This document shows, one piece after another, positions 3,562-24,000 of a stretch of 24,000 nucleotides of DNA. The stretch covers positions 1,315,494 through 1,339,493 of the forward strand of contig BA000048.1 of NCBI GenBank assembly GCA_000270325.1. Direction: 5' to 3'. The number at the start of each line of letters is the position of its first letter. The first letter of the stretch is position 1. Source of the stretch: Candidatus Caldarchaeum subterraneum (GTDB lineage: Archaea > Thermoproteota > Nitrososphaeria_A > Caldarchaeales > Caldarchaeaceae). The notes beneath the pieces were generated by a model. That model was not told the DNA's origin. It was given only the letters and a program-made list of their open reading frames with translations, and made no database searches. Made by a program: the position numbers and the translations under genes.

Positions 3562-4605
3562 ATGTTTCAAGTCCTCTCGCCCGAGGGCTTCGCCGAGGAG
3601 GAGCTTGACCCCGGGCTGCTTTTGTCGATGTACCGCGATATGGTTTGTGCACGTGTTCTAGATAGGTGGCTTATGCGTCTTCAACGCATGGGGAAAATAG
3701 GTATCCACGCTCCCTCCGAGGGACAGGAGGCCGCTGGCGTTGGGACGGCCTATGCACTCGGAACAAACGATTGGATATTCCCGCTTTACCGCGAGCTACC
3801 GGTCTTTGTTGCGCGAAGGGTCCCCATAGCGGACATAGTTAACAGAAACCTAGCAAACTCGGCTGATCCCCTTAAGGGCAGAGACTTCGCCGTATACGGT
3901 GATATCAAGCACCGCATAGTTCCCGCCCCCATTCCTGTCGCGGTGCATATCCCCTCGGCCGTCGGCTTCGCGCTCTCCCTCAAATACAAGAAACTAAGCG
4001 AAGTGGTGATAAACTACTTCGGCGACGGGGCGACGTCGAAGGGAGATTTTCACGAGGCACTCAACTTCGCCGGCGTCTTCAAAGCGCCCATAGTTTTTGT
4101 TTGTGTCAACAACCAGTATGCCATTTCTGTTCCGGTGAGTAGGCAGACGGCTGTAGAGCATCTGTCGTTGAAGGCTGCGGCGTATGGGTTTGAGGGGGTT
4201 AGCGTGGATGGGAACGATGTGGTGGCTTGTTATCTCGCCGCTAAGAAAGCTGTTGAGAAGGCGAGACGCGGTGAGGGCCCTACGTTGATTGAGGCGGTGA
4301 CCTACAGGATTGGTCCACACACGACAGCCGATGACCCGTCACGATACAGAGATGATAAAGAGGTTGAGATGTGGCGGAGAAGAGACCCAATCACAAGGCT
4401 GCGGAGCCATCTACTGCGACGCGGTCTCTGGAGCATGGAAGAAGACGAGAAACTCTGGCGAACAACCGAGCAGACCATACAAAAAACCATAGAAGAATGC
4501 GAAAAGAATCGACCGCTGCCTCCCGAGTCTATCCTTGAGGATGTCTACGCAACGCCACCGTGGCATCTAATAGAGGAGAAGGAGGAGTTCAGTCAGCTGC
4601 GGTAA
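3562..4605 (+). CDS. 2-oxoacid (pyruvate/branched-chain) dehydrogenase E1 component, alpha subunit (TPP-dependent)
   Basis: 347 aa with the E1-alpha TPP motif YFGDGATSKGDFHEALNFAGVFKAPIVFVCVNNQYAIS and YRIGPHTTADDPSRYR. An AT-rich promoter-like region (TTTAATTAA) and GAAGGT lie upstream of the ATG. Confidence 0.85.
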   Translation: MFQVLSPEGFAEEELDPGLLLSMYRDMVCARVLDRWLMRLQRMGKIGIHAPSEGQEAAGVGTAYALGTNDWIFPLYRELPVFVARRVPIADIVNRNLANSADPLKGRDFAVYGDIKHRIVPAPIPVAVHIPSAVGFALSLKYKKLSEVVINYFGDGATSKGDFHEALNFAGVFKAPIVFVCVNNQYAISVPVSRQTAVEHLSLKAAAYGFEGVSVDGNDVVACYLAAKKAVEKARRGEGPTLIEAVTYRIGPHTTADDPSRYRDDKEVEMWRRRDPITRLRSHLLRRGLWSMEEDEKLWRTTEQTIQKTIEECEKNRPLPPESILEDVYATPPWHLIEEKEEFSQLR

Positions 4606-4996
4606 ACCATTTGATGTCATGGATGCTGCCAACACGTTTTTCACGGAAAACCGGCTTAACCTTCATACCTGTTCGAGGTGTCTTCGACGGGTCAAGCATG
4701 TGAAGCAACCCGCCCAAGGTATCCACGAACCTCACAAAAACCCATACAATCTCTTCACCTGCCTCACCGTCGGCGAGCATCCGTGACCGTGTGTAGGTTT
4801 GAACTACGGCAGCGGGGTCGACCTCGATGTATTCGTTTATGGGTTTGAAGCAGTCGAGGCAGTATGCTCGCGGCGGCACATGTTTTGAAGAGCATTTTCC
4901 ACATCTGCTTGCGATGATTTTTCCGTTGTGGAGGCCTTCGAGGAATTTTGAGAGGGCGACGCCTGCCGGATATTCATAATAGCTTTCGATCTCCAT
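4589..4996 (-). CDS. DUF35 family protein (rubredoxin-like Zn ribbon + OB fold), short paralog
   Basis: 135 aa. It has a Zn ribbon CGKCSSKHVPPRAYCLDC followed by an OB-fold-like C-terminus (...GMKVKPVFREK...). It is the last gene of the five-gene operon, 2 nt after the upstream DUF35 gene. Confidence 0.75.
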   Translation of the reverse strand: MEIESYYEYPAGVALSKFLEGLHNGKIIASRCGKCSSKHVPPRAYCLDCFKPINEYIEVDPAAVVQTYTRSRMLADGEAGEEIVWVFVRFVDTLGGLLHMLDPSKTPRTGMKVKPVFREKRVGSIHDIKWFTAAD

Positions 4997-4998
4997 GG

Positions 4999-5643
4999 CT
5001 ATTCACCCGCGGGCTTGAAATGGCTTATGTCGAGGATGCTTCCTCTCCGCTGCTCCGCTGGCTTCCAAACAGGCTTCACCCTCATGCCAATTCGGACATC
5101 GCCGGGGCCGCACTCGCGGATTATGTGCATAAGACCAGCAGCGTGGAAAACTGTTTTTGACGACGGCGTCTCTCTAACAGTGTCTTTGAACCAGAGGACT
5201 GCCACGATGTTGGGCTCGGCCAACCTAACCCCAGGGTCTGTGCCGATATAAGCCAGCGAATAGGTTGAGACAACTGCTTCACCGTTGTGCTCAACCCAGT
5301 CCGAGACCTCTCTCATGCACCATTCGCAGAAGAGACGCGGCGGTATCAACACTCTTCCGCATCCGCTGCACCGTGTCCCGAATAACCTACCCTCCCGAAG
5401 TCCTTGGAGAAACTTGGCAAGAGCCTCACCCGGCGTGTCAGCGTACCTACACAGTATTCTCCAGTGGCTTAGGACAAGATGTTCAACACTCCACATCTCG
5501 GAATATTTTTTGTTCAAAGCATCTTCCCAATCCTTTCCATATTCTTTGTCGAGTCCGTTTTTGAGGAGGTGTTGGCCGATGGCTTTAGGTATCTGTTGCA
5601 GATAATCCTGCGTGTATACTATTCTCTTTGTCATACTCTGCAC
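4999..5643 (-). CDS. DUF35 family protein, long paralog with ~85-aa N-terminal extension
   Basis: 214 aa. The core is ...ALAKFLQGLREGRLFGTRCSGCGRVLIPPRLFCEWC... plus an OB-like C-terminus (GMRVKPVWKPAEQ), paralogous to the 135-aa protein (ALSKFLEGLHNGKIIASRCGKCS). The extra N-terminal segment contains no motif I recognise. The gene overlaps the upstream thiolase-like gene by 13 nt. Confidence 0.7.
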   Translation of the reverse strand: MQSMTKRIVYTQDYLQQIPKAIGQHLLKNGLDKEYGKDWEDALNKKYSEMWSVEHLVLSHWRILCRYADTPGEALAKFLQGLREGRLFGTRCSGCGRVLIPPRLFCEWCMREVSDWVEHNGEAVVSTYSLAYIGTDPGVRLAEPNIVAVLWFKDTVRETPSSKTVFHAAGLMHIIRECGPGDVRIGMRVKPVWKPAEQRRGSILDISHFKPAGE

Positions 5644-6785
5644 ACCACCACCTGCCCCACCTGCATCAAATCACCCCAAGCCTGAGCAACACCGACATAC
5701 GCGTTTGGGACCTGGCGTTTTCCAGCTCTTCCGCTCAGCTGCCAGTAGAGTTCCGCCACCTTCATGAGGCCTGCGGCGGCTATCGGGTTGCCCACTCCCA
5801 GCAACCCGCCTGAAGGCGATGTTGGATGGTCGCCGTCTCTCTCCAGCTGACCTTCTTCGAGGAGCCTTGGAGCGAGTCCTGGTTTGCCGAGAAGAGCGTC
5901 GAGGTGATGTAGCTCCTTGTATGTGAAGGGGTCGTAGGGCTCGAAGACATCGATTTCTTTCAACGGATTGGTTATACCCGCCATTTTGTAGGCTTGCTGG
6001 GCTGCGAGGTAGACGTAGTAGGGGTAGCAGAGGTCTCTGTTTGTCCAGTATTGGCTGTCGAGGCATGCGCCGACTCCATCAACCCATACAGGTGTGTCGG
6101 TTATCTTCTTGGCTTCATGCTCTGATGCGAACAACAGGGCCACGGCGCCGTCTGATGTGGGGCTGATGTCAAGCCTATGGACCGGCCAGACGAGGACGGG
6201 TGATTTGAGGACATCGTCCACAGTTATTTTTGCTCCGAGCTGTGAATATGGATGGTCCAAGGCGTTGGCCTTGTTTTTGACCGCGACTCTTGCGATAAGC
6301 TCCTTCTCTAGTGCGTGTTTCTCCATGTAGCGGCGCATCTCCAAGGCGAATATCCAGATGAGGTTGGGGCCAAGAGGCTGTTCAAGTATCGGCTCGAATA
6401 TTGAGCGGAAAAGTGGCTGCGCATGGGGATAGGGATGGCTCATCTTCTCCCACGCGACGACCAGAACCTTATCAAATAATCCCGAGGCAACATGCCACCA
6501 CCCTGATATGGCAACCCCCACACCGGTGCCGCCTCCGACAAAGACACGTGAAAAAGGTTTGGCAAATGCTCCGGAAGGCTCAACAGCAACGAGTCCCTTG
6601 TGATGATAGCCGTCAAAAGCGTCGGGCGCCGAGCCACCTACCACAGCATCAACATCACCTGCATCAAGCCCAGCGTCGTCTAAGCATTTCCTCACGGCCT
6701 CGAAAACCATCTCCTCGGAAGTCATGGGCAACATGGAGCGGAAATACGTCATCCCAGCGCCAACAATAGCTACACGTCGTCGCAC
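5631..6785 (-). CDS. Thiolase-fold (SCP-x/archaeal thiolase-like) protein B, lacking canonical catalytic Cys/His
   Basis: 384 aa. Thiolase-like blocks: MRRRVAIVGAGMTYF, LDISPTSDGAVALLFAS, SPSGGLLGVGNPIAAAGL. At the nucleophile position (usually V-E-A-A-C-A-S-G) it reads RVFVGGGTGVGVA. The GHP histidine is Asn (GNP). The C-terminal H-N-x-G-G block reads AQAWGD. Confidence 0.75.
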   Translation of the reverse strand: MRRRVAIVGAGMTYFRSMLPMTSEEMVFEAVRKCLDDAGLDAGDVDAVVGGSAPDAFDGYHHKGLVAVEPSGAFAKPFSRVFVGGGTGVGVAISGWWHVASGLFDKVLVVAWEKMSHPYPHAQPLFRSIFEPILEQPLGPNLIWIFALEMRRYMEKHALEKELIARVAVKNKANALDHPYSQLGAKITVDDVLKSPVLVWPVHRLDISPTSDGAVALLFASEHEAKKITDTPVWVDGVGACLDSQYWTNRDLCYPYYVYLAAQQAYKMAGITNPLKEIDVFEPYDPFTYKELHHLDALLGKPGLAPRLLEEGQLERDGDHPTSPSGGLLGVGNPIAAAGLMKVAELYWQLSGRAGKRQVPNAYVGVAQAWGDLMQVGQVVVCRV

Positions 6786-6791
6786 ACATCA

Positions 6792-7892
6792 TCACCCCGC
6801 CGACAAGACGACAACAGAGCCGCCGTCAACAACCTCGCCGTCGACAGACGCGACCAAGCACCCGCTCCACCTACCCATCCTCAGCAGCTTAACCGCCTGC
6901 ACAACTCTCTGCAGCCCCGCGGCATTAAGCGGATAACCCATCCCGATACAGCCACCCGACGGGTTAACAGGCAACGCTCCATCAAACATGAAATCACCAC
7001 CGCGAACACCTTTCAAAACATCTCCGTCGTAGACACCCAGCTCATCCAACACCATCAACTCCGTGGAAGCGAAAGACTCCGAAACCTCCACAAACTCCAC
7101 AACCCTCCTCAGGGAACCCGGTAACGCTTTTGAGACAGCTGGCCTCACCCAGGCAAACTTCCCGAAAACCCTCTCCGACAAATCGGAAGAATGAGAACCA
7201 TGGGCAAACCCGACACCCTTCACCACAGCCTTCGCAGAACGATTGTCAGATGACAAAAGCACAACAGAGGCATAGTCACAGAGGCGAGCCACATGGCTTC
7301 TCCTCAAAGGCTCTGAAACAAACTCCTCGGACTCGATTTTCTCTATGTCGGTGTCTGCTCCGTATGCTGCGGCTGAATTTCGCAGCGCGTTGCGGATGTT
7401 CTTCGCGGCGACGATGGACAGGTCGCGTGGCTCACCATTCCGGCGTGAAAGGAAGGCCTGTGCATCGAGGGCAGCTATCGAGAAGTGATGAATCAGCAGG
7501 GGGCGGATAAGGTGTGGGTCCCAGGTGTTCAGCAGTATTTCGCCGTAGTTGAGTATGTTTGAGGATTTGGCGTAGGCTGTTACTAGAACGTTTTTGAACC
7601 AGCCTGTTTTGATGAGCATGTATGCGTGGATGAATGCGTTGAGCGAGTCGTTTGAGACAAGAGTGTTGAACTTAAGCCTTCCACCAACTTGGTCAGGTGT
7701 GTAGGAGTCGGTGATGCTTATGCCCTCAAAGAAGTCTAGGCCGCTAGCCACAACCGCATCTATCTCGGAGACCTCTGACTCCGAGTCTTCGAGACAGTTT
7801 TTGAAAGCTTTGAAGAGCATTTCGCGGAAATCTTGTGTATAGGATGGTTTGCAGGGGATTTCGCCGACACCTGCTACATAGACCTCGGTCAA
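6792..7892 (-). CDS. Thiolase-fold protein A, highly divergent and lacking canonical catalytic Cys/His
   Basis: 366 aa. Thiolase-like blocks: MTEVYVAGVGEIP, NPSGGCIGMGYPLNAAGLQRV. The nucleophile region reads NTLVSNDSLNAF with no Cys between residues ~35 and ~200. GHP is replaced by GYP. The SDGAAA block is replaced by CDYASV. Confidence 0.7.
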   Translation of the reverse strand: MTEVYVAGVGEIPCKPSYTQDFREMLFKAFKNCLEDSESEVSEIDAVVASGLDFFEGISITDSYTPDQVGGRLKFNTLVSNDSLNAFIHAYMLIKTGWFKNVLVTAYAKSSNILNYGEILLNTWDPHLIRPLLIHHFSIAALDAQAFLSRRNGEPRDLSIVAAKNIRNALRNSAAAYGADTDIEKIESEEFVSEPLRRSHVARLCDYASVVLLSSDNRSAKAVVKGVGFAHGSHSSDLSERVFGKFAWVRPAVSKALPGSLRRVVEFVEVSESFASTELMVLDELGVYDGDVLKGVRGGDFMFDGALPVNPSGGCIGMGYPLNAAGLQRVVQAVKLLRMGRWSGCLVASVDGEVVDGGSVVVLSAG

Positions 7893-7902
7893 GAATTCAC
7901 CT

Positions 7903-9045
7903 CTAGTATGATTTGGGGAGGCCGAGGACGTGGGTGCCGATGTATGAGAGTATCAGCTCGTTGGCGACGGGGGCTGTGAGAAAGAGCCTGATAACGGGGT
8001 AGAAGGTGATGATGTCTGTGCCAAGGTCGTAGGCGCTTCCGCCGAAGGTCTGCATGGCGGCCTCAAAAGCCTCCAACCCAGCCTCAGACGCGACAAGCTT
8101 CGCCATGTTAGCCTCAGCTCCACAGGGCTTGCCAGCGTCAAAAAGACTCGCCGCCTCATAGTTCAGCACACGCGCCGCCTCGAGCCTAGCCTTTGCCCTC
8201 GCCATCCTAAACTGCAGCCCCTGATAACTTCCCACGGGATGCCCGAAGACAACCCTCTGACGCCCATACTCCGCGGCCCGTCGCAGAACATGGTCCCCCA
8301 ACCCGATGCTACACGCCGCGATAAGCATACGCTCAACGTTCAACCCGTCGAACAAAACATCCACCCCACGGTCCAGCCTACCAACCAGATTCTCCTCACC
8401 CAATTCGACCATGTCAAAATACACCGTGTACTGTGTCTCGGGAGAGTAGAGCTCGATGTTGAGCGGCTCAAACATAACTCCGCTTGTCCGTGTCTCGAGC
8501 GCGAACACAGAAATCCCGTCTCTCTTATCCGAAACTTTTTGGAGAGGCTTTGTCCGCGCCACGACGACCAGATAATCCGACTCCCGTGCCCCGGTGATGA
8601 ATGTTTTCTGACCGTTCAAAACAAACCCGCCATTCCTTCTCTCGGCGAAGGTCTTTATCCGCCAGGTCTCGGAGCCAGCCTCAGCCTCAGTCAAAGCGAA
8701 GCTAATTTTTTTACCATGCTTGACAGTTGGGTCCACGAATCTTTCAAACTGCATCCGCGTGCCATGCCTCGCAATCATGACCCGCGAGAAATGGGTTGTG
8801 AGAAAATGTAGCAGCGGAATACCAGCTCTCGCCAACCCCTCCTGAACAAGGATGGCGTCGAGGGTGCCCGACCCCTCTACCACACCGGCCCCCGTCAACC
8901 CAGATTTCTGAAGCTCCTCCCAAAGAGGAACCGGCTCCCTTCTCTCACGACCATAAGCAAGCCAATTCCGTCTACCAAACCTCTCACCAACCTTCTCAGC
9001 AGTCTGGAGAACCAAAACCTGCTCATCGGAAAGCACGTTATTCAT
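7903..9045 (-). CDS. Acyl-CoA dehydrogenase family flavoprotein
   Basis: 380 aa with ACAD-typical layout: N-terminal LSDEQVLVLQTAEKV, FALTEAEAGSE, central beta domain, GLNVERMLIAACSIGLG, QRVVFGHPVGSYQGLQFRMA and FGGSAY. It is the first gene of the operon, 10 nt upstream of thiolase-like A. Confidence 0.85.
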   Translation of the reverse strand: MNNVLSDEQVLVLQTAEKVGERFGRRNWLAYGRERREPVPLWEELQKSGLTGAGVVEGSGTLDAILVQEGLARAGIPLLHFLTTHFSRVMIARHGTRMQFERFVDPTVKHGKKISFALTEAEAGSETWRIKTFAERRNGGFVLNGQKTFITGARESDYLVVVARTKPLQKVSDKRDGISVFALETRTSGVMFEPLNIELYSPETQYTVYFDMVELGEENLVGRLDRGVDVLFDGLNVERMLIAACSIGLGDHVLRRAAEYGRQRVVFGHPVGSYQGLQFRMARAKARLEAARVLNYEAASLFDAGKPCGAEANMAKLVASEAGLEAFEAAMQTFGGSAYDLGTDIITFYPVIRLFLTAPVANELILSYIGTHVLGLPKSY

Positions 9046-9102
9046 AGATTCTTTAGAATAATTAAGGTTTCCCGAACATCTCTAAAAAACAAAGCTTTAA
9101 AC

Positions 9103-9735
9103 ATGGTCGACGGCAACGTTTCGATAATGCTGATGCCTGGGAAGAAAATCGTTGTCTTAGGCATTCTAATACTTTTGATAATTCCAGTTTCGTTACTGGC
9201 GGTAAACCTGCCCCAAATTTTCACGAAGAAGCCGCCCAAGGATTTTTGGACAAACCCCATCGCTAAGCTGAAGGGGGGAAACCCGTACGCACTCTCGCTA
9301 GCCCTTTCCGGCACTGGGCTTATGGTTGTGGCCCAGTTCTACAGTGTTGTGAAGAGGGCTGGAAGGTTGTGGATGAAAAGGCTCGGTGGACCAAGAGCTT
9401 GGCTCATAATCCACGAAATTCTCGACGTTGTGGGTCCTATCCTAATATTGGTTCACGCCGGACTCAGCAAACCCAATTTCATCAATCTTTCTTGGTTAGC
9501 CAAAAGCCTTCAAAACAGTGTCGCCGGAATACCAGCGATGTTGGCACCGTTCCTTATAGCGAGCGGCCTTTTCGGGCGTCACCTTTACCGAAGGCTACCT
9601 GTCATGCAGAGGCAGTTCAGGCACTGGAGGACAGTCCACATAGCGTTGACGGCCATTTTCTATGTCGCAGGCTTAACCCACGTTCTTGTTAACACAAAAG
9701 TGTTCCAAACATTATTGAGTCTCCCAAAAGATTAA
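9103..9735 (+). CDS. Integral membrane protein, putative bis-His di-haem b-type cytochrome (ferric-reductase-domain / cytochrome-b-like)
   Basis: 210 aa with ~5 predicted TM helices. Two helices each carry an H-x13-H pair: HEILDVVGPILILVH and HIALTAIFYVAGLTH. It is transcribed divergently from the ACAD operon across a 57-nt spacer. Confidence 0.55.
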   Translation: MVDGNVSIMLMPGKKIVVLGILILLIIPVSLLAVNLPQIFTKKPPKDFWTNPIAKLKGGNPYALSLALSGTGLMVVAQFYSVVKRAGRLWMKRLGGPRAWLIIHEILDVVGPILILVHAGLSKPNFINLSWLAKSLQNSVAGIPAMLAPFLIASGLFGRHLYRRLPVMQRQFRHWRTVHIALTAIFYVAGLTHVLVNTKVFQTLLSLPKD

Positions 9736-9818: not shown

Positions 9819-11807
9819 TCAGCCGCTACGCAGAATTTCCGCAGCTTTTTCGAAGAAGTCAAGTGACTCGGGGTTTCGGATGGATTCTCTGTTGGTGACT
9901 CTTCTTCCGTTGATGATGTTTGAAACGGCTATCTCGACTTTTTTCATGTTGTATGTGTAGGGGATGTCGGGTGCCTCCATGATGATGGCTGGGACGTGGC
10001 GTGGCGAAGCTCTCTCGCGGAGAGCCTGTTTGATTCGGTTCTTCAGCTCCTCGGTCAACACATAGCCCTCAGCCATTTTGACGAAGAGTATGATGCGTTG
10101 GTCGCCTCTCCACTCCTGTCCAACAGCCAAGCTGTCCGCAACCTCTCTAAAACTCTCGACGATAGAGTATATCTCAGCCGTCCCTATTCTGACTCCGGAT
10201 GGCTTGAGGACAGCATCAGACCTGCCGAGAAAAGTTATGCCGCCTGTGTCGCTGTGAAAGATGACGTAGTCGCCGTGTCTCCAGACACGCTTATGAGTGT
10301 AGTAGCGGAAGTATGCGTCAAGATATTTCTCGTCACCGGGGTCGTTGAGAAAATAGAGAGGCATGGGTGGAGCGGGTGCTTCGCAGACAAGCTCACCCTC
10401 CCTGTCAAAAACAGGCTCACCCCTCTCATCATAACACATTATCTTCATCCCCAGCGAGGGGGACTGAATCTGTCCAGCGTAGACAGGCAGTATAGGCGAG
10501 CCGTTTGCAAAAGTGCCGTTGATGTCTGTGCCGCCTGAAATGGAGTTAAAGTGCAAATCTCTCTTTACCTCATCATATATCCATTTGAAGCCCTCGGCGG
10601 AAAGCGGTGAACCTGTCTGGCTTATCTCCCGCAAACTCTCAAGACCAAACTCGCTGCGAGGAGAGGCCCCCATCCCTCTTAGAAGGTTGATGTAGCTCGC
10701 GCTACATCCAAAGATAGATATACCGTATTCGTCGATGAGGCGCCACATTCTTCTCCAGTCGGGATAGTTGGGGTCTCCGTCGTAGAGAAGCACCGTTCCT
10801 CCCGCGGCGAGGGAGGAGACCAGCCAGTTCCACATCATCCAGCTAGGCGTCGTAATGTAGGTAATCACCTCTCCCCGTTTTAGGTCACTATGAATAACCA
10901 CATCCTTGAGCTGGTTGACCAAGACCCCTGCCGCGGGCTGGACCATGCACTTAGGCTTCCCCGTTGTCCCCGATGAAAACATGATGTAGAGAGGGGTATC
11001 TGAAGGAACTTGGGCAAAATCTATCGCTCCACCCTCGCGAGCCTTAAAGTCGGGATATAGCACGGCCTCTGCCAAGCCATCTATTCGCGGGCTTTCAGAG
11101 AGATAGGGAATGACAACAACCTTCTGAATGGATTTAACCCGTTCAACAACCTGACTCACTCTCTCCAACACATCAAACGCCTTCCCCCTGTAAAGATATC
11201 CGTCAACCGTGAACAACACCTTCGGCTCGATTTGCCCAATCCTGTCGACGACGGCGTCAACGCCTAGCTCCGTCCCGACAGAAGACCACGAAGCACCGAG
11301 CGATGTAGCCCCAAGCATCGCAATCACGGTCTCCGGTATGTTGGGCAAGTATCCAGCCACCCTGTCTCCCGCTGCGACACCGGATTCACTTAACCCTCTC
11401 GCAACGGCTGCGACCTCGTTGTAGAACTCGAGAAACCTCATCGCATTCGTCTCACCATCCTCACGCACACCTATCAACGCGGCTTCGTGGCCTCTGTGCC
11501 TGAGAAGGTTCTCGGCAAAGTTCAGCCGCGCCCCCACGTACCAGCGTGCACCTGGAAATTTAGACAAGTCATCCACAACAGTCTCAAACCGCTTGGAGCA
11601 TTTTATCCCGAAAAAATCCCAAACATGCATCCAGAACCTCGGTATATTGGTTACAGACCATCGATACAGCTTAAAGTAGCTCCCCTTTTCGAAAACATCG
11701 AGACCCAGACCCTCATGGTCGTCGACAAACTTTATGAAAGAGTTCATGTTGGATTTGGCTACGACATCGGTTGAAGGCTCCCAGAGACGCATCCAATCAC
11801 AGGTCAT
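9819..11807 (-). CDS. Acetoacetyl-CoA synthetase-like AMP-forming acyl-CoA ligase
   Basis: ~660 aa. The N-terminus LWEPSTDVVAKSNMNSFIKFV is typical of acetoacetate-CoA ligases. AMP-binding motifs are present: MFSSGTTGKPKC, YGISIFGCSA, GGTDI, WRHGDY. The track start at 11819 is TTG. ATG 11807 or ATG 11792 (MRLWEPS) is more likely, given an AATTTTATT TATA-like box at ~11820-11830. Confidence 0.8.
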   Translation of the reverse strand: MTCDWMRLWEPSTDVVAKSNMNSFIKFVDDHEGLGLDVFEKGSYFKLYRWSVTNIPRFWMHVWDFFGIKCSKRFETVVDDLSKFPGARWYVGARLNFAENLLRHRGHEAALIGVREDGETNAMRFLEFYNEVAAVARGLSESGVAAGDRVAGYLPNIPETVIAMLGATSLGASWSSVGTELGVDAVVDRIGQIEPKVLFTVDGYLYRGKAFDVLERVSQVVERVKSIQKVVVIPYLSESPRIDGLAEAVLYPDFKAREGGAIDFAQVPSDTPLYIMFSSGTTGKPKCMVQPAAGVLVNQLKDVVIHSDLKRGEVITYITTPSWMMWNWLVSSLAAGGTVLLYDGDPNYPDWRRMWRLIDEYGISIFGCSASYINLLRGMGASPRSEFGLESLREISQTGSPLSAEGFKWIYDEVKRDLHFNSISGGTDINGTFANGSPILPVYAGQIQSPSLGMKIMCYDERGEPVFDREGELVCEAPAPPMPLYFLNDPGDEKYLDAYFRYYTHKRVWRHGDYVIFHSDTGGITFLGRSDAVLKPSGVRIGTAEIYSIVESFREVADSLAVGQEWRGDQRIILFVKMAEGYVLTEELKNRIKQALRERASPRHVPAIIMEAPDIPYTYNMKKVEIAVSNIINGRRVTNRESIRNPESLDFFEKAAEILRSG

Positions 11808-11834
11808 GCATGGCGGCAATAAAATTTTTTGGAG

Positions 11835-11909
11835 CGGGCCCGGTGGGACTTGAACCCACGACCTCCGGCTCCGCAGGCCGACGCCCTATCCATTCTAGGC
11901 CACGGGCCC
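11835..11909 (-). tRNA. tRNA-Arg (anticodon GCG)
   Basis: Reverse complement: GGGCCCGTGGCCTAGAATGGATAGGGCGTCGGCCTGCGGAGCCGGAGGTCGTGGGTTCAAGTCCCACCGGGCCCG. It folds as a cloverleaf with a 7-bp acceptor, D arm GCCT/GGGC, anticodon stem TCGGC/GCCGG with loop CUGCGGA, and T arm GTGGG-TTCAAGT-CCCAC. CCA is not encoded. Confidence 0.9.
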
Positions 11910-12008: not shown

Positions 12009-12578
12009 ATGATTGACGTGATGGCGCGGGAGGTTGTTAAGGGAAAGTGGGCGACGAGGTTCATAGTGGCGGCATATGTTCAGGGAGCTTTGGCTGTGGG
12101 TAACACCTTGTTCTGGGTGATTGGGCAGCTGGGGTTCATGAAGCCTGAGTTCAGCAGGGTGATAGCTTTCGGCAGCGCTGGCACATGGTTCACGGTGGGC
12201 TACCTCAGCTACCTCATAGTCGGAGTCATCGGAGTCGCCGTCACCGCCCTCTTCTACCACTACATCGAAAACGTTCTCGGCAAACCCTACAAAGGCCTCG
12301 CCAACGGCCTAGCATGGCTACACCTCATTCTAATGAATGTCGGCGTCATAGGCGCTACTTGGCTGATGATGGTGAGTGGATACTTGGCAGGAGCGGCTAT
12401 GCTTCCACCAGAGGTAGGCGGACGTGGATGGAACGCTGGACAAGTCCATACAAACATCTTCTACGGCATTCCCCTGGGGTATCCGACGTGGATAGCGTTG
12501 TTCATTTTCCTACTGGCTATCGGAGTCGCTTGCGGAGGCCTCGGCTACATACTGATGTGGCGACAAAGAGCAGAGTAG
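12009..12578 (+). CDS. Hypothetical integral membrane protein (4-5 TM)
   Basis: The ORF is strongly hydrophobic (FIVAAYVQGALAVGNTLFWVIG, YLIVGVIGVAVTALFY, LAWLHLILMNVGVIGATWLMMVSGYLAG, WIALFIFLLAIGVACGGLGYILMW) and I recognise no family. The start is uncertain: GTG 11967, ATG 12009 or ATG 12021. Confidence 0.55.
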   Translation: MIDVMAREVVKGKWATRFIVAAYVQGALAVGNTLFWVIGQLGFMKPEFSRVIAFGSAGTWFTVGYLSYLIVGVIGVAVTALFYHYIENVLGKPYKGLANGLAWLHLILMNVGVIGATWLMMVSGYLAGAAMLPPEVGGRGWNAGQVHTNIFYGIPLGYPTWIALFIFLLAIGVACGGLGYILMWRQRAE

Positions 12579-12667
12579 GCCATCTCACGTTAATACCCGT
12601 AGATACATCCCCCATTTTTTTGATGCAGCATTTTTATCCCAGGAGCCGTGATTCATCGTCATCGGAG

Positions 12668-13246
12668 ATGTTTCGGTTGTTCAGGAAGAAGGAGCCGCCT
12701 AAGCCGCCTTTCGACCAGAGGCTGTCAGAGATAGTTACACGGCTTATGACGATTCAGAACAGGATGGATTACAAGGCTCGAGCGATGCAGATGAGGGGTA
12801 GGGAGCTCTTCAACCAAATCGTCCGCGCTAAGATGGAGAAGGACGAGGAGCGTGCAGCTGTTTACGCCAACGAGCTCGCGCAGCTACGTAAAATGATGCA
12901 TGCAACGGTTAGGAGCCAGGCCTCGCTCGAAGGGGTTGTTCTAAGGCTCGAGGCTGTCCGAGACTATAATGAGGTGAGGAAGGTCATCGGGCCCGTCGCA
13001 GCGGTTGTCATGGCTGTTCAGAAAGATGTCGGCGGGGTGATGCCCGAGATCTCCAGCGGGCTAAGAGGTGTTCAAGACCTTCTCGAAGACCTGTCAGTCA
13101 GCGTCGGCACCGTCTCAGACACCTACATCGGAGCATCAACGGCAGATCCGGAGGCCGAGGCGATTCTGCGAGAGGCTTCGGAGGTCGCAGCTCAGCGGCT
13201 GAAGAAAGACATGCCCGACATAGAGTCGGGACACTTCATAACATAA
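12668..13246 (+). CDS. ESCRT-III / Snf7-family (CdvB-like) protein
   Basis: 192 aa from internal ATG 12668. Features: a basic N-terminus MFRLFRKKEPPKPP; long helical-hairpin-like heptad segments with the CdvB/ESCRT-III-typical ...ERAAVYANELAQLRKM...; and an acidic C-terminal region ending in a short amphipathic EVAAQRLKKDM. The upstream 161 codons of track ORF 12185..13246 overlap the membrane-protein gene in another frame and were rejected. A TTTTTATC box at 12631-12638 fits a near-leaderless start. Confidence 0.7.
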   Translation: MFRLFRKKEPPKPPFDQRLSEIVTRLMTIQNRMDYKARAMQMRGRELFNQIVRAKMEKDEERAAVYANELAQLRKMMHATVRSQASLEGVVLRLEAVRDYNEVRKVIGPVAAVVMAVQKDVGGVMPEISSGLRGVQDLLEDLSVSVGTVSDTYIGASTADPEAEAILREASEVAAQRLKKDMPDIESGHFIT

Positions 13247-20166: not shown

Positions 20167-20241
20167 GGGCCCGTGGCGCAGAATGGATAGCGCACCGGCC
20201 TTCTAAGTCGGGGGTCGTGGGTTCAAGTCCCACCGGGCCCG
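20167..20241 (+). tRNA. tRNA-Arg (anticodon UCU)
   Basis: GGGCCCGTGGCGCAGAATGGATAGCGCACCGGCCTTCTAAGTCGGGGGTCGTGGGTTCAAGTCCCACCGGGCCCG. It forms a cloverleaf with anticodon loop CUUCUAA. Its acceptor stem, D loop and T arm are identical to those of the tRNA-Arg(GCG) at 11835-11909. CCA is not encoded. Confidence 0.9.
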
Positions 20242-21125: not shown

Positions 21126-21512
21126 ATGAGGAAGGAGATCATCTTCACGGAGAAGGCTCCCAAGCCGATAGGGCCGTATTCGCAGGCTGTTCGGGTTGGC
21201 GATTTTCTTTTCCTCTCAGGCATGGTTGCGATAAACCCCGCGACAGGAAAGGTCGAGGAAACCGATATTAGGTCCCAGACTAGACGGGTTATGGAGAACG
21301 CCAAAGCCATACTCGAGGCTGCGGGCCTGTCTTTCGAACATGTCGTAAAAGCTACGGTTTATCTGGCGAACCCCGATGACTTTGCGGCGATGAACGAGGT
21401 ATACAGCCAATATTTTCCACAGAATCCACCGGCTCGAACAACTGTTGCGGTACATTTTCCGCGGAAAGAGTTTCTGGTGGAGATTGACTTTATCGCTTAC
21501 ATGGGGCGGTGA
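21126..21512 (+). CDS. ridA: RidA/YjgF/L-PSP family reactive-intermediate (enamine/imine) deaminase
   Basis: 128 aa with KAPKPIGPYSQAVRVGDFLFLSGMVAINPATGK..., PARTTVAV and VEIDFIA, the canonical RidA family motifs. Confidence 0.88.
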   Translation: MRKEIIFTEKAPKPIGPYSQAVRVGDFLFLSGMVAINPATGKVEETDIRSQTRRVMENAKAILEAAGLSFEHVVKATVYLANPDDFAAMNEVYSQYFPQNPPARTTVAVHFPRKEFLVEIDFIAYMGR

Positions 21513-23616: not shown

Positions 23617-24000
23617 AGCCAGCTGCACACCACCGCCAAGACGTGATGAGGACCATGGATGCCCAGCACAAGCCTCTGCTCAATATCCCCCGACCTGCTC
23701 GGGCCCGAGATAAATGTGACAGCAACTCTATCCCTCTCCATGGCTGAGCGAAGCAGGTCAGAAGTCATGTAAACAGATTTGACTACGGAGGAGCCGTTGA
23801 CAAAGCATACATAGGTTTTGGGGAGGCTTGAGACGAGGCGTTCAACGTCGTCGAAGGCGACCTCGACTAGGGTTCCCGTCTCCGCCACTGCTGCGGCCGC
23901 TGTGGATATTCCCGCGTCTACAATTTTGACCACGTTGACAGGGTCTTCGGAGGAATCATATGTATAGGCTTGGATGCCCATTTCCTTCAATTTTTTCTCA
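23613..24000 (-). CDS. LutC-like LUD-domain protein (N-terminus beyond window end)
   Basis: The frame stays open to the window edge (...EKKLKEMGIQAYTY...). The sequence GISTAAAAVAETGTLVEV...RLVSSLPKTYVCFV...VTFISGPSRSGDIEQ..LGIHGPHHVLAVV is the typical LUD/LutC C-terminal pattern (AETG, SGPSxTxDIE, G.HGP). Confidence 0.72.
   Translation of the reverse strand, partial: EKKLKEMGIQAYTYDSSEDPVNVVKIVDAGISTAAAAVAETGTLVEVAFDDVERLVSSLPKTYVCFVNGSSVVKSVYMTSDLLRSAMERDRVAVTFISGPSRSGDIEQRLVLGIHGPHHVLAVVCSWL

What the first reader, a model, noticed from the sequence alone, without database searches (positions are those of the whole stretch)
4589..9045. Tight five-gene operon: ACAD + two non-canonical thiolase-fold paralogs + two DUF35 proteins (candidate undescribed C-C bond enzyme complex)
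Seen in sequence:
- Five minus-strand genes run 9045->4589 with spacings of 10, 6, -13 (overlap) and 2 nt, so they are almost certainly one transcript.
- The operon contains no enoyl-CoA hydratase and no 3-hydroxyacyl-CoA dehydrogenase, so it is not an ordinary beta-oxidation set.

Established knowledge: DUF35 proteins are scaffold or partner subunits of thiolase-fold enzymes in three characterised machines.
- the archaeal acetoacetyl-CoA thiolase/HMG-CoA synthase/DUF35 complex
- the PhlA-PhlC-PhlB acyltransferase
- the actinobacterial Ltp2-ChsH2(DUF35) retro-aldolase, which acts after ACAD and hydratase steps

This operon matches none of them. It has two thiolase-fold subunits, neither an HMGCS and neither with a thiolase nucleophile. 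It has two DUF35 paralogs rather than one. An ACAD sits at its head.

Inference: a heteromeric (A/B thiolase-fold)-(DUF35)2 assembly. It would perform non-thiolytic chemistry (retro-aldol/aldol, acyl transfer or decarboxylative condensation) on an acyl-CoA desaturated by the ACAD.
Basis: partly seen in the sequence, partly recalled or inferred. Interest (0 to 1): 0.82.

Follow-up and report, generated by a model that had tools for sequence, protein, structure and literature searches.

The report
Cysteine-less thiolase-like/DUF35 four-gene archaeal cassette
The operon is real. Its last four genes form an ancient, uncharacterised cassette found across many archaeal phyla, encoding two thiolase-shaped proteins that cannot be thiolases plus two zinc-ribbon partner proteins; it most likely cuts carbon-carbon bonds in acyl-CoA breakdown by a different chemistry, and is widely mislabelled as acetyl-CoA acetyltransferase.

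Summary
**Observation:** confirmed. Five minus-strand genes lie at 9045->4589 in Ca. Caldarchaeum subterraneum: ACAD, thiolase-like A, thiolase-like B, DUF35-1 and DUF35-2. Spacers are 10, 6, -13 (or -4) and 2 nt.

**Catalytic residues:** neither A nor B has the thiolase nucleophile. B has Gly for the nucleophilic Cys, YDPF for HDCF and GNP for GHP. In A the Cys segment is deleted, and it has SESF and GYP.

**The conserved unit is A-B-D1-D2, not the five genes.**
- A B-specific motif scan hit at least 593 stretches in a one-genome-per-species collection.
- 69 of 82 loci examined keep the order. They span Bathyarchaeia, Asgard, Thermoprotei, Nitrososphaeria and some bacteria.
- B is 63% identical across phyla with invariant motifs. 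A, D1 and D2 are about 34% identical.
- D1 and D2 are two ancient orthologous groups.

**Neighbours:** the ACAD is lineage-specific, but non-orthologous ACADs and ACS-type ligases recur next to the cassette. In other Aigarchaeota the operon reads E1alpha-E1beta-ACAD-A-B-D1-D2.

**Best reading (about 0.45):** B shares Gly and Tyr with the Ltp2/Sal retro-aldolases. It would be the catalytic subunit of a heterotetramer doing Cys-independent enolate chemistry, probably retro-aldol cleavage of a short 3-hydroxyacyl-CoA.

**Status:** I found no functional study. PDB 3IRB (SSO2064) is the D2 orthologue. I rate it a new variant of a known kind.

The parts
7903..9045 (-). Acyl-CoA dehydrogenase and first gene of the operon. 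It belongs to an ACAD subfamily with the catalytic Glu on helix G ('LNVER'), no C-terminal 'YEG' Glu ('TAPVANE'), and the C-terminus 'LGLPKSY'.
   Evidence: - ORF.
- Pfam ACAD N, M and C domains.
- PDB best hit 5lnx at 1e-43.
- Motif comparison.
- This gene is linked to the cassette only in Caldarchaeales and other Aigarchaeota.
6792..7892 (-). Thiolase-like subunit A, a degenerate SCP2/archaeal-thiolase fold. The Cys-nucleophile segment is deleted, SESF replaces HDCF, and GYP replaces GHP. It is probably a non-catalytic partner of B.
   Evidence: - (best NCBIfam hit PRK06066 at 219 bits, below the 516 cutoff).
- AF2 pLDDT 90.2, with Foldseek TM 0.91 to 6et9_C.
- Only 33% identical to orthologues outside its order.
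5631..6785 (-). Thiolase-like subunit B, the conserved and presumed catalytic subunit. Gly85 replaces the nucleophilic Cys. Tyr284-Asp-Pro-Phe replaces His-Asp-Cys-Phe. Gly-Asn333-Pro replaces Gly-His-Pro.
   Evidence: - NCBIfam NF004721/PRK06065 at 595 bits, above the 455 cutoff.
- Alignments to 7yvy and 6esq.
- Motifs invariant in about 120 homologues and 68 cassette orthologues.
- 61-69% identity across phyla.
4999..5643 (-). DUF35 subunit D1, the long form. It has an N-terminal helical extension, a C4 zinc ribbon (CSGC...CEWC) and an OB fold. The likelier start is the ATG at 5634, a 4-nt overlap with B.
   Evidence: - Pfam zf-ChsH2 plus OB_ChsH2_C.
- PDB 3IRB at 3e-16.
- C4 ribbon invariant in 68 of 68 orthologues.
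- Forms its own clade, always in third position.
4589..4996 (-). DUF35 subunit D2, the short form, with a C4 zinc ribbon (CGKC...CLDC) and an OB fold. It is the orthologue of S. solfataricus SSO2064 (PDB 3IRB).
   Evidence: - Pfam zf-ChsH2.
- 3IRB at 1e-14.
- The 3IRB sequence best matches the fourth gene of the Sulfolobaceae cassette, at 51%.
- Forms a separate clade, always in fourth position.
9046..9102 (-). AT-rich spacer upstream of the ACAD, containing TATA-like elements (TTAATTATT, TTTAAAG). It is the presumed operon promoter region, shared with the divergent ORF at 9103-9735.
   Evidence: Sequence read. This is inference only, because no archaeal promoter tool was available.
9819..11819 (-). 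Acetoacetate--CoA ligase. It is a conserved neighbour of the operon in Aigarchaeota. In this window it is a separate transcript, because the plus-strand ORF 9103-9735 lies between them.
   Evidence: - NCBIfam NF002937 at 813 bits (cutoff 639) and TIGR01217 at 752 bits (cutoff 521).
- Adjacent in L001-L005 and L007, and convergent in L085.
3562..4605 (+). 2-oxoacid dehydrogenase E1 alpha subunit. It is convergent with D2, the two 3' ends overlapping by 17 nt. In other Aigarchaeota, E1alpha and E1beta head the same operon as the ACAD and the cassette.
   Evidence: - Pfam E1_dh at 2e-86.
- TIGR03181 at 414.5 bits against a 411.35 cutoff.
- L085/L086 gene map.

Best explanation
**Assembly (inferred).** The last four genes encode one heteromeric enzyme. 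A and B would form a pseudo-symmetric thiolase-fold heterodimer, and each of its two faces would be capped by its own DUF35 zinc-ribbon/OB protein (D1, D2). This mirrors the alpha-beta-beta-alpha arrangement of Ltp2-ChsH2(DUF35) and Sal-Shy(DUF35).

**Roles (inferred).** B is the catalytic subunit. A, D1 and D2 are structural or substrate-shaping.

**Chemistry.** B cannot form an acyl-enzyme (shown). Instead it would stabilise an acyl-CoA enolate, using Tyr284 and Asn333 in the positions of the thiolase His residues and Gly85 in the position of the nucleophilic Cys (inferred). The most likely reaction is retro-aldol cleavage of a short, probably branched, 3-hydroxyacyl-CoA into an aldehyde or ketone plus acetyl- or propionyl-CoA.

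**Pathway in this organism (inferred).** A 2-oxoacid dehydrogenase would make the acyl-CoA. The operon's ACAD would desaturate it. A hydratase encoded elsewhere would hydrate it. The neighbouring acetoacetate-CoA ligase would recycle an acid product. HMG-CoA or 3-hydroxyisovaleryl-CoA from leucine are candidate substrates.

**Shown:** gene structure, loss of the thiolase residues, conservation pattern and neighbourhoods.
**Inferred:** the complex, which subunit is catalytic, the reaction and the substrate.
For: **1. Not thiolases.** The Cys nucleophile, the HDCF His and Cys, and the GHP His are absent in both A and B.

**2. B resembles the known retro-aldolases.**
- B carries Gly at the Cys position and Tyr at the first position of the HDCF-equivalent motif.
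- These are the same substitutions as in TcLtp2 (YDHF) and CtSal (YDCY).
- In those enzymes the Tyr is the catalytic base and the Gly backbone binds the beta-hydroxyl (PMC12329534).

**3. B behaves like an enzyme and its partners like scaffolds.**
- B is 63% identical across phyla with invariant motifs.
- A is 33%, D1 35% and D2 34% identical, and A's 'active-site' positions vary.

**4. Evidence for one complex.**
- The order A-B-D1-D2 is complete in 69 of 82 loci. Most of the other 13 are cut by contig ends or suffer ORF-calling artefacts; a few (L063, L076, L080, L082) are real rearrangements or incomplete cassettes.
- The median A-B gap is 12 nt and the median B-D1 gap is 6 nt.
- D1 and D2 separate perfectly into position-specific clades.
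- Every solved close structural relative with a partner binds DUF35: 6et9, 5m3k, 9vbo, 9myr, 6ok1 and 7pxp.

**5. Pathway context.**
- ACAD is the commonest acyl-CoA enzyme among 264 flanking genes (17 of them). It comes from at least three non-orthologous subfamilies in at least six lineages.
- ACS-family ligases recur in the same way.
- In other Aigarchaeota the operon is E1alpha-E1beta-ACAD-A-B-D1-D2, followed by a convergent acetoacetate-CoA ligase.

**6. What close ACAD relatives sit beside in bacteria.**
- In Ktedonobacteraceae, the 47%-identical ACAD sits with a Cys-less YDAF thiolase-like protein, a DUF35 and two hot-dog hydratase subunits.
- In Cycloclasticus, a 40%-identical ACAD sits with a CitE-type acyl-CoA C-C lyase and a MaoC-type hydratase.
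- Both show the logic ACAD -> hydratase -> aldol-type lyase.

**7. Organism context.** Caldarchaeia relatives are branched-chain amino-acid specialists (PMC12979851).
Against: - B lacks the second catalytic residue of both known aldolases. It has Pro where Sal has the essential Cys304, and Asn where Ltp2 has Tyr344.
- No hydratase is encoded in or next to the archaeal cassette. There is no MaoC or ECH among the top families within two genes either side.
- B is closer in sequence to archaeal ACATs (7yvy at 7e-48) than to Ltp2 (6ok1 at 4e-19) or Sal (9myr at 2e-19).
- Many cassettes sit among unrelated housekeeping genes.
- Bathyarchaeia place the cassette beside methylmalonyl-CoA mutase, MeaB and an adenosyltransferase, which suits a decarboxylase or epimerase role equally well.
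- The ACAD subfamily also occurs in ordinary beta-oxidation clusters.
- No complex prediction or assay was possible. The B model was poor, at pLDDT 69.
Confidence: 0.45

Rival explanations
1. The complex is a Cys-independent decarboxylase, or another enolate-type enzyme such as an epimerase. It would act on a carboxylated acyl-CoA such as methylmalonyl-, malonyl- or 3-methylglutaconyl-CoA. The model is the Cys-less KS-like decarboxylases and the weak malonyl-CoA decarboxylase activity of TbSLP.
For: - In about 10 Bathyarchaeia loci and one Actinomycetota locus, the cassette lies beside the methylmalonyl-CoA mutase large subunit. Most also carry the B12 subunit, MeaB and an adenosyltransferase. 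This resembles the E. coli sbm-ygfDGH logic, which I cite from my own knowledge.
- The same oxyanion-hole chemistry would serve decarboxylation.
- TbSLP (YDCF, no nucleophile) decarboxylates malonyl-CoA slowly (PMC12329534).
- No hydratase is encoded nearby.
Against: - The mutase association is confined essentially to one class.
- ACAD and ligase associations are phylogenetically broader.
- TbSLP's kcat is only 0.005 s-1, and its authors now favour an aldolase role. CtSal shows no decarboxylase activity.
- The small VOC gene inside the actinobacterial cassettes is not recognised as methylmalonyl-CoA epimerase.
Confidence: 0.15
2. The complex works in the biosynthetic direction. It would catalyse an aldol- or Claisen-type condensation of acetyl-CoA with a carbonyl compound, feeding fatty-acid-like or isoprenoid precursor synthesis. 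This would be a relative of the archaeal KT/DUF35 fatty-acid synthase or the ACAT/HMGCS/DUF35 complex.
For: - Archaeal KT/DUF35 pairs drive condensation in mevalonate and fatty-acid synthesis, and several pairs occur per genome (bioRxiv 10.1101/2024.07.05.601840).
- The closest sequence and structure relatives of A and B are archaeal ACATs from such complexes.
- The cassette often stands alone among housekeeping genes, as a core biosynthetic operon would.
- Bathyarchaeia have a divergent canonical thiolase plus DUF35 pair next to it.
Against: - Claisen condensation by thiolases and HMGCS needs the Cys acyl-enzyme, which is absent.
- The recurrent neighbours are catabolic: ACAD, AMP-forming ligases and 2-oxoacid dehydrogenase E1.
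- No reductase or dehydratase partners are adjacent.
Confidence: 0.15
3. The proteins are non-enzymatic. They would be an acyl-CoA-binding, carrier or regulatory assembly (pseudoenzymes), or a scaffold for other enzymes.
For: - All canonical catalytic residues are lost in both thiolase-fold proteins.
- DUF35 proteins act as scaffolds, and one (Trf, Sso2509) even works in translation (PMC6996347).
- The SSO2064 structure paper proposed an acyl-CoA-binding or carrier role (PMC2954200).
Against: - B's 61-69% identity across phyla, with invariant replacement residues exactly at the former catalytic positions (G, Y, N), points to a remodelled active site rather than a decayed one.
- Ltp2 and Sal set the precedent that such remodelling gives active aldolases.
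Confidence: 0.1
4. They are ordinary beta-ketothiolases (acetyl-CoA C-acetyltransferases) of beta-oxidation, as annotated in public records.
For: - Source annotations read 'acetyl-CoA C-acetyltransferase' or 'beta-ketoadipyl-CoA thiolase'.
- The proteins have a thiolase fold and ACAD neighbours.
Against: - Both lack the nucleophilic Cys, the acid/base Cys and both catalytic His residues. In B this holds across about 120 homologues.
- NCBI's own model names B only 'thiolase domain-containing protein'.
Confidence: 0.03

Closest known systems
Ltp2-ChsH2(DUF35) steroid side-chain retro-aldolase (Thermomonospora curvata / M. tuberculosis igr operon; PDB 6OK1)
   Same: - SCP2-thiolase-like fold with no nucleophilic Cys (Gly instead).
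- Tyr at the first position of the HDCF-equivalent motif: YDHF in Ltp2, YDPF in B.
- DUF35 zinc-ribbon/OB partner.
- Acts after an ACAD step encoded in the same operon.
- Foldseek TM 0.82 for A and 0.72 for B.
   Different: - Ltp2 is a homodimer with one kind of DUF35, which is fused to a MaoC hydratase subunit. Here there are two thiolase-like paralogues, two free-standing DUF35 paralogues and no hydratase.
- Ltp2's acid Tyr344 is Asn in B, and its oxyanion His is Pro.
- Sequence relationship is distant (E 4e-19, against 7e-48 to archaeal ACAT).
- The hosts are archaea without steroid metabolism.
Sal-Shy(DUF35) bile-acid C5 side-chain aldolase (Comamonas testosteroni; PDB 9MYR)
   Same: - Gly at the Cys-nucleophile position.
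- Catalytic Tyr (YDCY), and an amide residue (Gln352) where thiolases have the GHP His. B has Asn there.
- Alpha-beta-beta-alpha dimer flanked by DUF35 domains.
- The aldehyde product is re-oxidised and re-activated by a CoA ligase, which parallels the ligase neighbours seen here.
   Different: - Sal's essential Cys304 is Pro in B and Ser in A.
- Sal is a homodimer, and its DUF35 is fused to the hydratase Shy.
- Its substrates are steroids with an open pocket.
[quoted passage not shown]
   Same: - These are the closest solved relatives by sequence and structure: A has TM 0.91 to 6et9_C, and B scores 2.5e-36 to 6esq.
- They are archaeal, with an operon-encoded DUF35 scaffold.
   Different: - Those thiolases keep Cys, HDCF and GHP and perform Claisen chemistry.
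- Their partner is HMGCS or a reductase/dehydratase, not a second Cys-less thiolase paralogue.
- They have one DUF35, not two.
PhlABC / MucABC Friedel-Crafts acyltransferases (PDB 5M3K, 9VBO)
   Same: They combine an active and an inactive thiolase-superfamily subunit with a DUF35 protein in one operon-encoded complex.
   Different: - The inactive subunit PhlA/MucA is HMGS/KAS-III-like rather than SCP2-thiolase-like.
- The active PhlC/MucB keeps the nucleophilic Cys and the GHx motif.
- There is one DUF35.
- These are bacterial secondary-metabolism enzymes.
Uncharacterised Ktedonobacteraceae cluster (locus L087): Cys-less thiolase-like (G / YDAF / GH) + DUF35 + two hot-dog subunits + ACAD + MBL hydrolase
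   Same: - Its ACAD is the closest non-archaeal relative of the window ACAD (47% identical, with the same LNxER / APxxxE / LGLPKSY features).
- Its thiolase-like protein lacks the Cys and has the Tyr.
- It has a DUF35 partner.
- An MBL-fold neighbour is present, as beside many archaeal cassettes.
   Different: - It has a single thiolase-like protein and a single DUF35.
- It keeps the GHP His.
- It encodes its own heteromeric hydratase.
- It has not been studied experimentally either, as far as I could find.

Membership tests
Thiolase (SCP2-type / archaeal acetoacetyl-CoA thiolase, EC 2.3.1.9/16) | Five-layer thiolase fold | tested here: met
   - Pfam Thiolase_N and Thiolase_C_1.
- AF2 model of A at pLDDT 90, TM 0.91 to 6et9_C. 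B has TM about 0.8 to 6et9_C.
Thiolase (SCP2-type / archaeal acetoacetyl-CoA thiolase, EC 2.3.1.9/16) | Nucleophilic Cys in the xACASG motif | tested here: not met
   - B has Gly85 (VGGGTG).
- A has a 3-4 residue deletion at that site.
- The state holds family-wide.
Thiolase (SCP2-type / archaeal acetoacetyl-CoA thiolase, EC 2.3.1.9/16) | HDCF motif (His plus acid/base Cys) and the GHP His | tested here: not met
   - B has YDPF and GNP.
- A has SESF and GYP.
Ltp2/Sal thiolase-fold retro-aldolases | Gly in place of the nucleophilic Cys, and a catalytic-base Tyr at the first position of the YDxF/YDCY motif | tested here: met
   - Met by B only: Gly85 and Tyr284, invariant in about 120 homologues. 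The residue roles come from PMC12329534.
- A does not meet it.
Ltp2/Sal thiolase-fold retro-aldolases | Catalytic acid: Tyr344 in Ltp2 or Cys304 in Sal | tested here: not met
   - B has Asn333 and Pro286 at these positions.
- A has Tyr at the Ltp2-Tyr344 position, but only in the Caldarchaeum clade.
Ltp2/Sal thiolase-fold retro-aldolases | DUF35 partner supplied as a domain of the preceding MaoC hydratase; aldolase is a homodimer | tested here: not met
   - D1 and D2 are free-standing, with no MaoC domain.
- There are two thiolase-like paralogues instead of one.
- No hydratase lies in the operon.
Ltp2/Sal thiolase-fold retro-aldolases | Retro-aldol activity on a 3-hydroxyacyl-CoA | not testable with these tools
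   Needs an enzyme assay.
NCBIfam NF004721 (PRK06065) 'thiolase domain-containing protein' equivalog | Whole-protein score above the curated cutoff of 455 bits | tested here: met
   B scores 595.2 bits over the full length.
NCBIfam NF004722 (PRK06066) 'thiolase domain-containing protein' equivalog | Whole-protein score above the curated cutoff of 516 bits | tested here: not met
   - A scores 219 bits. This is its best hit, but below the cutoff.
- A is a divergent member. Crenarchaeal and Bathyarchaeal first-position genes are its orthologues by synteny.
Archaeal ACAT/HMGCS/DUF35 mevalonate complex | HMG-CoA synthase subunit and a Cys-active thiolase in the same operon | tested here: not met
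   There is no HMGCS-like gene. Both thiolase-fold genes are SCP2/ACAT-like and lack the Cys.
DUF35 (PF12172 zinc ribbon + PF01796 OB fold) | C4 rubredoxin-like zinc ribbon followed by an OB fold | tested here: met
   - D1 passes both Pfam models.
- D2 passes the zinc-ribbon model and aligns to 3IRB over residues 4-102.
- The C4 ribbon is kept in 68 of 68 D1 and 56 of 68 D2 orthologues.
Heteromeric A-B-D1-D2 complex (the claim itself) | Physical association of the four products | not testable with these tools
   - The evidence is indirect only: fixed gene order, short spacers and position-specific DUF35 clades.

The most novel reading that the evidence does not exclude
The cassette encodes a previously unrecognised four-subunit aldol-type acyl-CoA lyase found across many archaeal phyla. 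Its catalytic B subunit would have its own active-site solution (Gly/Tyr/Asn), evolved independently of the bacterial steroid aldolases, and would replace the dehydrogenase-plus-thiolase steps for a common short (branched) 3-hydroxyacyl-CoA. If so, hundreds of 'acetyl-CoA acetyltransferase' annotations are wrong, including those used to infer beta-oxidation, butyrate or fatty-acid metabolism in Asgard and Bathyarchaeia.
Probability: 0.35. Interest if true: 0.78.

Novelty: new variant of a known kind. Interest (0 to 1): 0.65.

Why it matters
**1. Annotation.**
- B-family genes occur in at least about 590 species-level genomes across Bathyarchaeia, Asgard, Thermoprotei, Nitrososphaeria and Aigarchaeota.
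- They are mostly labelled acetyl-CoA C-acetyltransferase, yet they cannot perform thiolysis.
- Metabolic reconstructions and counts of 'ketothiolase/DUF35 pairs' probably include them. That is my inference from bioRxiv 10.1101/2024.07.05.601840.

**2. Enzymology.** It would be the first heteromeric thiolase-fold/DUF35 enzyme built from two paralogues and two scaffolds. It would also be a third, independent way to rebuild a thiolase active site without cysteine.

**3. Physiology.** It points to a conserved but unassigned C-C cleavage step linked to ACADs, short-chain acyl-CoA ligases and 2-oxoacid dehydrogenases. In Aigarchaeota that step probably belongs to branched-chain amino-acid catabolism.

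**4. Tractability.** Orthologues exist in genetically tractable Sulfolobales, and one subunit's structure is already solved (3IRB).

Tried and rejected
- **B model.** The AF2 model from a shallow 19-sequence alignment was poor, at pLDDT 69. I used it only for fold-level matches.
- **VOC gene as epimerase.**
  - I suspected that the small VOC/glyoxalase gene inside the actinobacterial cassettes was methylmalonyl-CoA epimerase.
  - That would have favoured the decarboxylase rival.
  - NCBIfam gave only weak glyoxalase-I-type hits and no epimerase model. Not supported.
- **ACAD as IVD-like.**
  - I first read the ACAD's helix-G Glu as 'isovaleryl-CoA-dehydrogenase-like, hence branched substrates'.
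  - All 120 homologues share this feature, and several sit in ordinary beta-oxidation clusters.
  - It is a subfamily trait, not substrate evidence.
- **Neighbour census.** Apart from ACAD, ACS-type ligases, MBL, HAD and the mutase, neighbours are unrelated housekeeping genes. No hydratase or 3-hydroxyacyl-CoA dehydrogenase emerged.
- **Literature.**
  - Nine searches found no functional study of this cassette or of SSO2061-2063.
  - Dibrova et al. 2014 (PMC4019937) is not held.
  - The supplements of PMC12979851 are not held.
- **Trf (Sso2509).** This DUF35 translation factor did not appear among the PDB hits of D1 or D2. I did not pursue it.
- **D1-D2 spacing.** My alignment-anchored estimate (median 55 nt) is an artefact, because the window D2 is N-terminally shorter than most. 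The ORF coordinates put D2's start within about 10 nt of D1's stop in the loci I read off, and I did not compute this for all loci.
- **P0300 (Mycobacterium ACAD).** It could not be located in the contig index.

Full report
**1.

The window comes from Candidatus Caldarchaeum subterraneum (Aigarchaeota). Protein A is 100% identical to a record of that name on a 1.68-Mb contig.

Five minus-strand ORFs occupy 9045->4589:
- ACAD: 7903-9045, 380 aa.
- Thiolase-like A: 6792-7892, 366 aa.
- Thiolase-like B: 5631-6785, 384 aa.
- DUF35-1 (D1): 4999-5643, 214 aa. Public gene calls use the ATG at 5634, giving 211 aa.
- DUF35-2 (D2): 4589-4996, 135 aa.

The spacers are 10, 6, -13 (or -4) and 2 nt, so nothing fits between the genes. 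The only AT-rich, TATA-like stretch lies upstream of the ACAD. A bacterial-type promoter and terminator scan gave nothing above shuffled expectation.

Pfam and NCBIfam confirm the families. No hydratase or 3-hydroxyacyl-CoA dehydrogenase is in the operon, nor among the other window ORFs I scanned. The same block recurs in six related Caldarchaeales contigs.

**2. Neither thiolase-fold protein can be a thiolase, and the two are not equivalent**

I aligned both proteins to canonical SCP2-type and archaeal thiolases and to solved structures.

| Thiolase feature | B | A |
|---|---|---|
| Nucleophilic Cys (xACASG) | Gly85 (VGGGTG) | Segment deleted |
| His-Asp-Cys-Phe motif | Tyr284-Asp-Pro-Phe | Ser-Glu-Ser-Phe |
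| Gly-His-Pro motif | Gly-Asn333-Pro | Gly-Tyr-Pro |

- B's three features are essentially invariant in about 120 homologues and in 68 cassette orthologues. They read GG[GA]TG, YDPF and G[VCL]GNP.
- A's corresponding positions drift. They read SEPF/GYP in Caldarchaeum relatives, TEFF/GNS in other Aigarchaeota, and DDxY with H, L, V or W elsewhere.
- Across the same genome pairs, the window B is 63% identical (range 61-69%) to orthologues outside its order. A is 33%, D1 35% and D2 34% identical.
- B therefore looks like a remodelled active enzyme, and A like a structural partner.
- The AF2 model of A is confident (pLDDT 90.2, pTM 0.92) and is a complete thiolase fold. The B model was poor, at pLDDT 69.

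**3. The conserved unit is a four-gene cassette spread across many archaeal phyla**

- I scanned a one-genome-per-species collection with B-specific peptide patterns (YDPF[DT]YKE and AQAWGDLM).
- The 80 best loci come from Bathyarchaeia, Asgard lineages (Thor-, Hod-, Hermod- and Promethearchaeota), Thermoprotei (Sulfolobales, Desulfurococcales/Acidilobaceae, Thermoproteales), non-ammonia-oxidising Nitrososphaeria and Aigarchaeota. A few are Actinomycetota and Myxococcales MAGs.
- In 69 of 82 loci the order A-B-DUF35-DUF35 is complete. Most of the other 13 are cut by contig ends or suffer ORF-calling artefacts in high-GC DNA. A few (L063, L076, L080, L082) are real rearrangements or incomplete cassettes.
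- The median A-B gap is 12 nt and the median B-D1 gap is 6 nt.
- A neighbour-joining tree splits all 68 third-position DUF35s from all 68 fourth-position DUF35s. D1 and D2 are therefore ancient, position-fixed orthologous groups.
- D1 keeps a C4 zinc ribbon in 68 of 68 orthologues, and D2 in 56 of 68.
- The solved structure 3IRB (S. solfataricus SSO2064) is the orthologue of the fourth gene. It is 51% identical to the fourth gene of a Sulfolobaceae cassette.

**4. What surrounds the cassette**

I clustered all neighbours and took a Pfam census of 264 genes within two positions of the cassette in 79 loci.

| Neighbour family | Count among 264 flanking genes |
|---|---|
| ACAD | 17 |
| MBL-fold hydrolase | 11 |
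| HAD hydrolase | 9 |
| ACS-type AMP ligase | at least 8 |
| Methylmalonyl-CoA mutase | 7 |

- No MaoC, crotonase or short-chain dehydrogenase appears in the top lists. The remaining neighbours are housekeeping genes.
- The ACADs fall into at least three subfamilies that are only 25-35% identical to each other. The ligases do likewise.
- Direct same-strand arrangements include ACS-A-B-D1-D2-ACAD (Thermoproteus) and ACAD-A-B-D1-D2-ACS (Sulfolobaceae).
- Different lineages have thus repeatedly recruited 'an ACAD' and 'a short-chain acyl-CoA ligase' next to a B protein that barely changes. This suggests B acts on a common downstream intermediate.
- In Bathyarchaeia the cassette is followed by the methylmalonyl-CoA mutase large and B12 subunits, MeaB and an adenosyltransferase. 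It is preceded by a divergent canonical thiolase plus DUF35 pair.
- In Asgard loci a canonical thiolase, a crotonase and an ACS-like ligase lie a few genes away.

**5. Context in Aigarchaeota**

- The window's neighbouring ligase (9819-11819) is an acetoacetate-CoA ligase, above both curated cutoffs.
- A 2-oxoacid dehydrogenase E1 alpha gene converges on D2.
- In a second aigarchaeal lineage, whose ACAD is 56% identical, the operon reads E1alpha-E1beta-ACAD-A-B-D1-D2 on one strand with minimal spacers. A convergent acetoacetate-CoA ligase follows it.
- Relatives in Caldarchaeia are reported to specialise on branched-chain amino acids (PMC12979851).
- This places the cassette after a 2-oxoacid -> acyl-CoA -> enoyl-CoA sequence in this group.

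**6. Why a retro-aldol-type lyase is the best reading**

- Two thiolase-fold enzymes without the nucleophile are characterised: TcLtp2 and CtSal.
- In both, a Gly replaces the Cys and a Tyr in the HDCF-equivalent motif (YDHF, YDCY) is the catalytic base. [quoted passage not shown]
- B has exactly the Gly and the Tyr. It does not have their second catalytic residue: Pro replaces Sal's Cys304, and Asn replaces Ltp2's Tyr344 or Sal's Gln352.
- B is also closer in sequence to archaeal ACATs (7e-48) than to Ltp2 or Sal (about 1e-19).
- It should therefore be described as working like these aldolases through an independently remodelled site, not as a member of their families.
- The window ACAD belongs to a large subfamily with a helix-G Glu. 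Two bacterial relatives of this ACAD give independent support:
  - In Ktedonobacteraceae (47% identical) it sits with a Cys-less YDAF thiolase-like protein, a DUF35, two hot-dog hydratase subunits and an MBL hydrolase.
  - In Cycloclasticus (40% identical) it sits with a CitE-type acyl-CoA C-C lyase and a MaoC-type hydratase.
- Other members of the ACAD subfamily sit in ordinary beta-oxidation clusters, so this support is suggestive only.

**7. Proposed mechanism and what remains open**

- *Inferred:* an A-B heterodimer, with D1 and D2 each capping one non-equivalent face. This would explain why two DUF35 paralogues are retained.
- *Inferred:* B binds a 3-hydroxyacyl-CoA. Tyr284 abstracts the hydroxyl proton. 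The enolate is stabilised by Asn333 and backbone amides. An aldehyde or ketone leaves, together with acetyl- or propionyl-CoA.
- *Candidate substrates in Aigarchaeota:* tertiary alcohols that cannot be oxidised. One is HMG-CoA, which would give acetoacetate for the adjacent ligase. Another is 3-hydroxyisovaleryl-CoA.
- *Unexplained:* the hydratase is not encoded nearby, and the acid catalyst is unknown.
- *Rivals that the data do not exclude:*
  - A decarboxylase or epimerase acting on a carboxylated acyl-CoA, suggested by the mutase neighbourhood.
  - A condensing role.
  - A non-catalytic assembly.
- Canonical thiolase function is excluded by sequence.

**8. Known or new?**

- NCBIfam has models for both families (PRK06065, PRK06066), named only 'thiolase domain-containing protein'.
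- JCSG solved the D2 orthologue in 2010 and proposed an acyl-CoA-binding role (PMC2954200).
- A 2024 preprint counts multiple ketothiolase/DUF35 pairs in archaeal genomes. It does not distinguish Cys-less ones.
- I found no paper on SSO2061-2063 or on this cassette. I could not read Dibrova et al. 2014.
- I therefore rate it a new variant of a known kind: a thiolase-fold/DUF35 enzyme with a Cys-less, lyase-type site. Its function is uncharacterised and its distribution wide.
The ACAD is an accessory, lineage-specific neighbour, and A and B have unequal roles.

Noticed in passing
window 3562-4605 (+), overlapping D2's 3' end by 17 nt: The 2-oxoacid dehydrogenase E1 alpha gene has no E1 beta or E2 gene beside it in this window. 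In another aigarchaeal lineage (L085/L086), E1alpha and E1beta sit directly upstream of ACAD-A-B-D1-D2 on the same strand. The Caldarchaeum arrangement therefore looks like a rearranged remnant of a seven-gene operon.
   Followed up: partly
L047:5192-5560, L041:962-1327; also gaps in L038 and L051: Actinomycetota MAG versions of the cassette carry an extra 122-123 aa VOC/glyoxalase-fold gene between A and B. Their B is about 64% identical to archaeal B. Their flanking genes are typically bacterial (adenylate-cyclase/TPR regulator, M23 peptidase), which suggests archaea-to-bacteria transfer. The VOC gene is not recognised as methylmalonyl-CoA epimerase.
   Followed up: partly
L087:4283-9352 (Ktedonobacteraceae): An apparently uncharacterised Ltp2/ChsH-like set lies outside known steroid degraders. 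It comprises a Cys-less thiolase-like protein (G / YDAF / GH), a DUF35, two hot-dog subunits, an ACAD 47% identical to the window ACAD, and an MBL hydrolase. A TetR regulator and two AMP-ligases sit beside it.
   Followed up: partly
Asgard loci L037, L048, L052, L053, L058, L067; also L049, L075 and L087: MBL-fold (Lactamase_B/ODP) hydrolase genes recur next to the cassette: 11 of 131 flanking genes in one batch. One also lies next to the Ktedonobacteraceae aldolase-like cluster. Their role is unknown; thioester hydrolysis is one possibility.
   Followed up: no
Bathyarchaeia loci L009-L036, e.g. L010:5100-15428: A canonical (Cys-type by HMM score) thiolase plus DUF35 pair is divergently transcribed from the cassette. 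The methylmalonyl-CoA mutase large and B12 subunits, MeaB and an adenosyltransferase follow it on the same strand.
   Followed up: partly
L088:7001-14294 (gammaproteobacterial contig): Six tandem paralogues (387-388 aa each) of the same ACAD subfamily as the window ACAD lie in a row.
   Followed up: no
window ACAD 7903-9045 and 120 homologues (P0220-P0339): The whole ACAD subfamily has Glu on helix G (LN[PVA]ER), lacks the usual C-terminal YEG Glu (APxxxE instead) and ends in LGLP[KR]SY. Placement of the catalytic base as in IVD/LCAD is my reading from prior knowledge of IVD Glu254; I did not check it against an IVD alignment.
   Followed up: partly
A residues ~53-70 and B residues ~53-61 (window 7683-7736 and 6603-6629, minus strand): Both thiolase-like proteins have a strongly conserved loop here. 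In A it reads D-F-x-E-G-I-S-I-x-D-x-Y-T-P, and in B A-P-D-x-F-D-G-x-H. AlphaFold predicts this loop with low confidence in the monomers. It may be a subunit interface or an active-site lid.
   Followed up: no
window 9103-9735 (+): A 210-aa predicted membrane protein with no Pfam match lies between the operon and the acetoacetate-CoA ligase gene, on the opposite strand. It is seen only in the nearly identical contigs.
   Followed up: no
window 11834-11909 (-), 20167-20241 (+), 12185-13246 (+), 21490-23990 (-): The window also holds two tRNA-Arg genes (GCG, TCT), a Snf7/ESCRT-III-like ORF with only a borderline Pfam score (26.7 bits against a 27.3 cutoff), and LUD-domain/4Fe-4S/CCG proteins resembling lactate-utilisation LutB/LutC. 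These appear unrelated to the finding.
   Followed up: no
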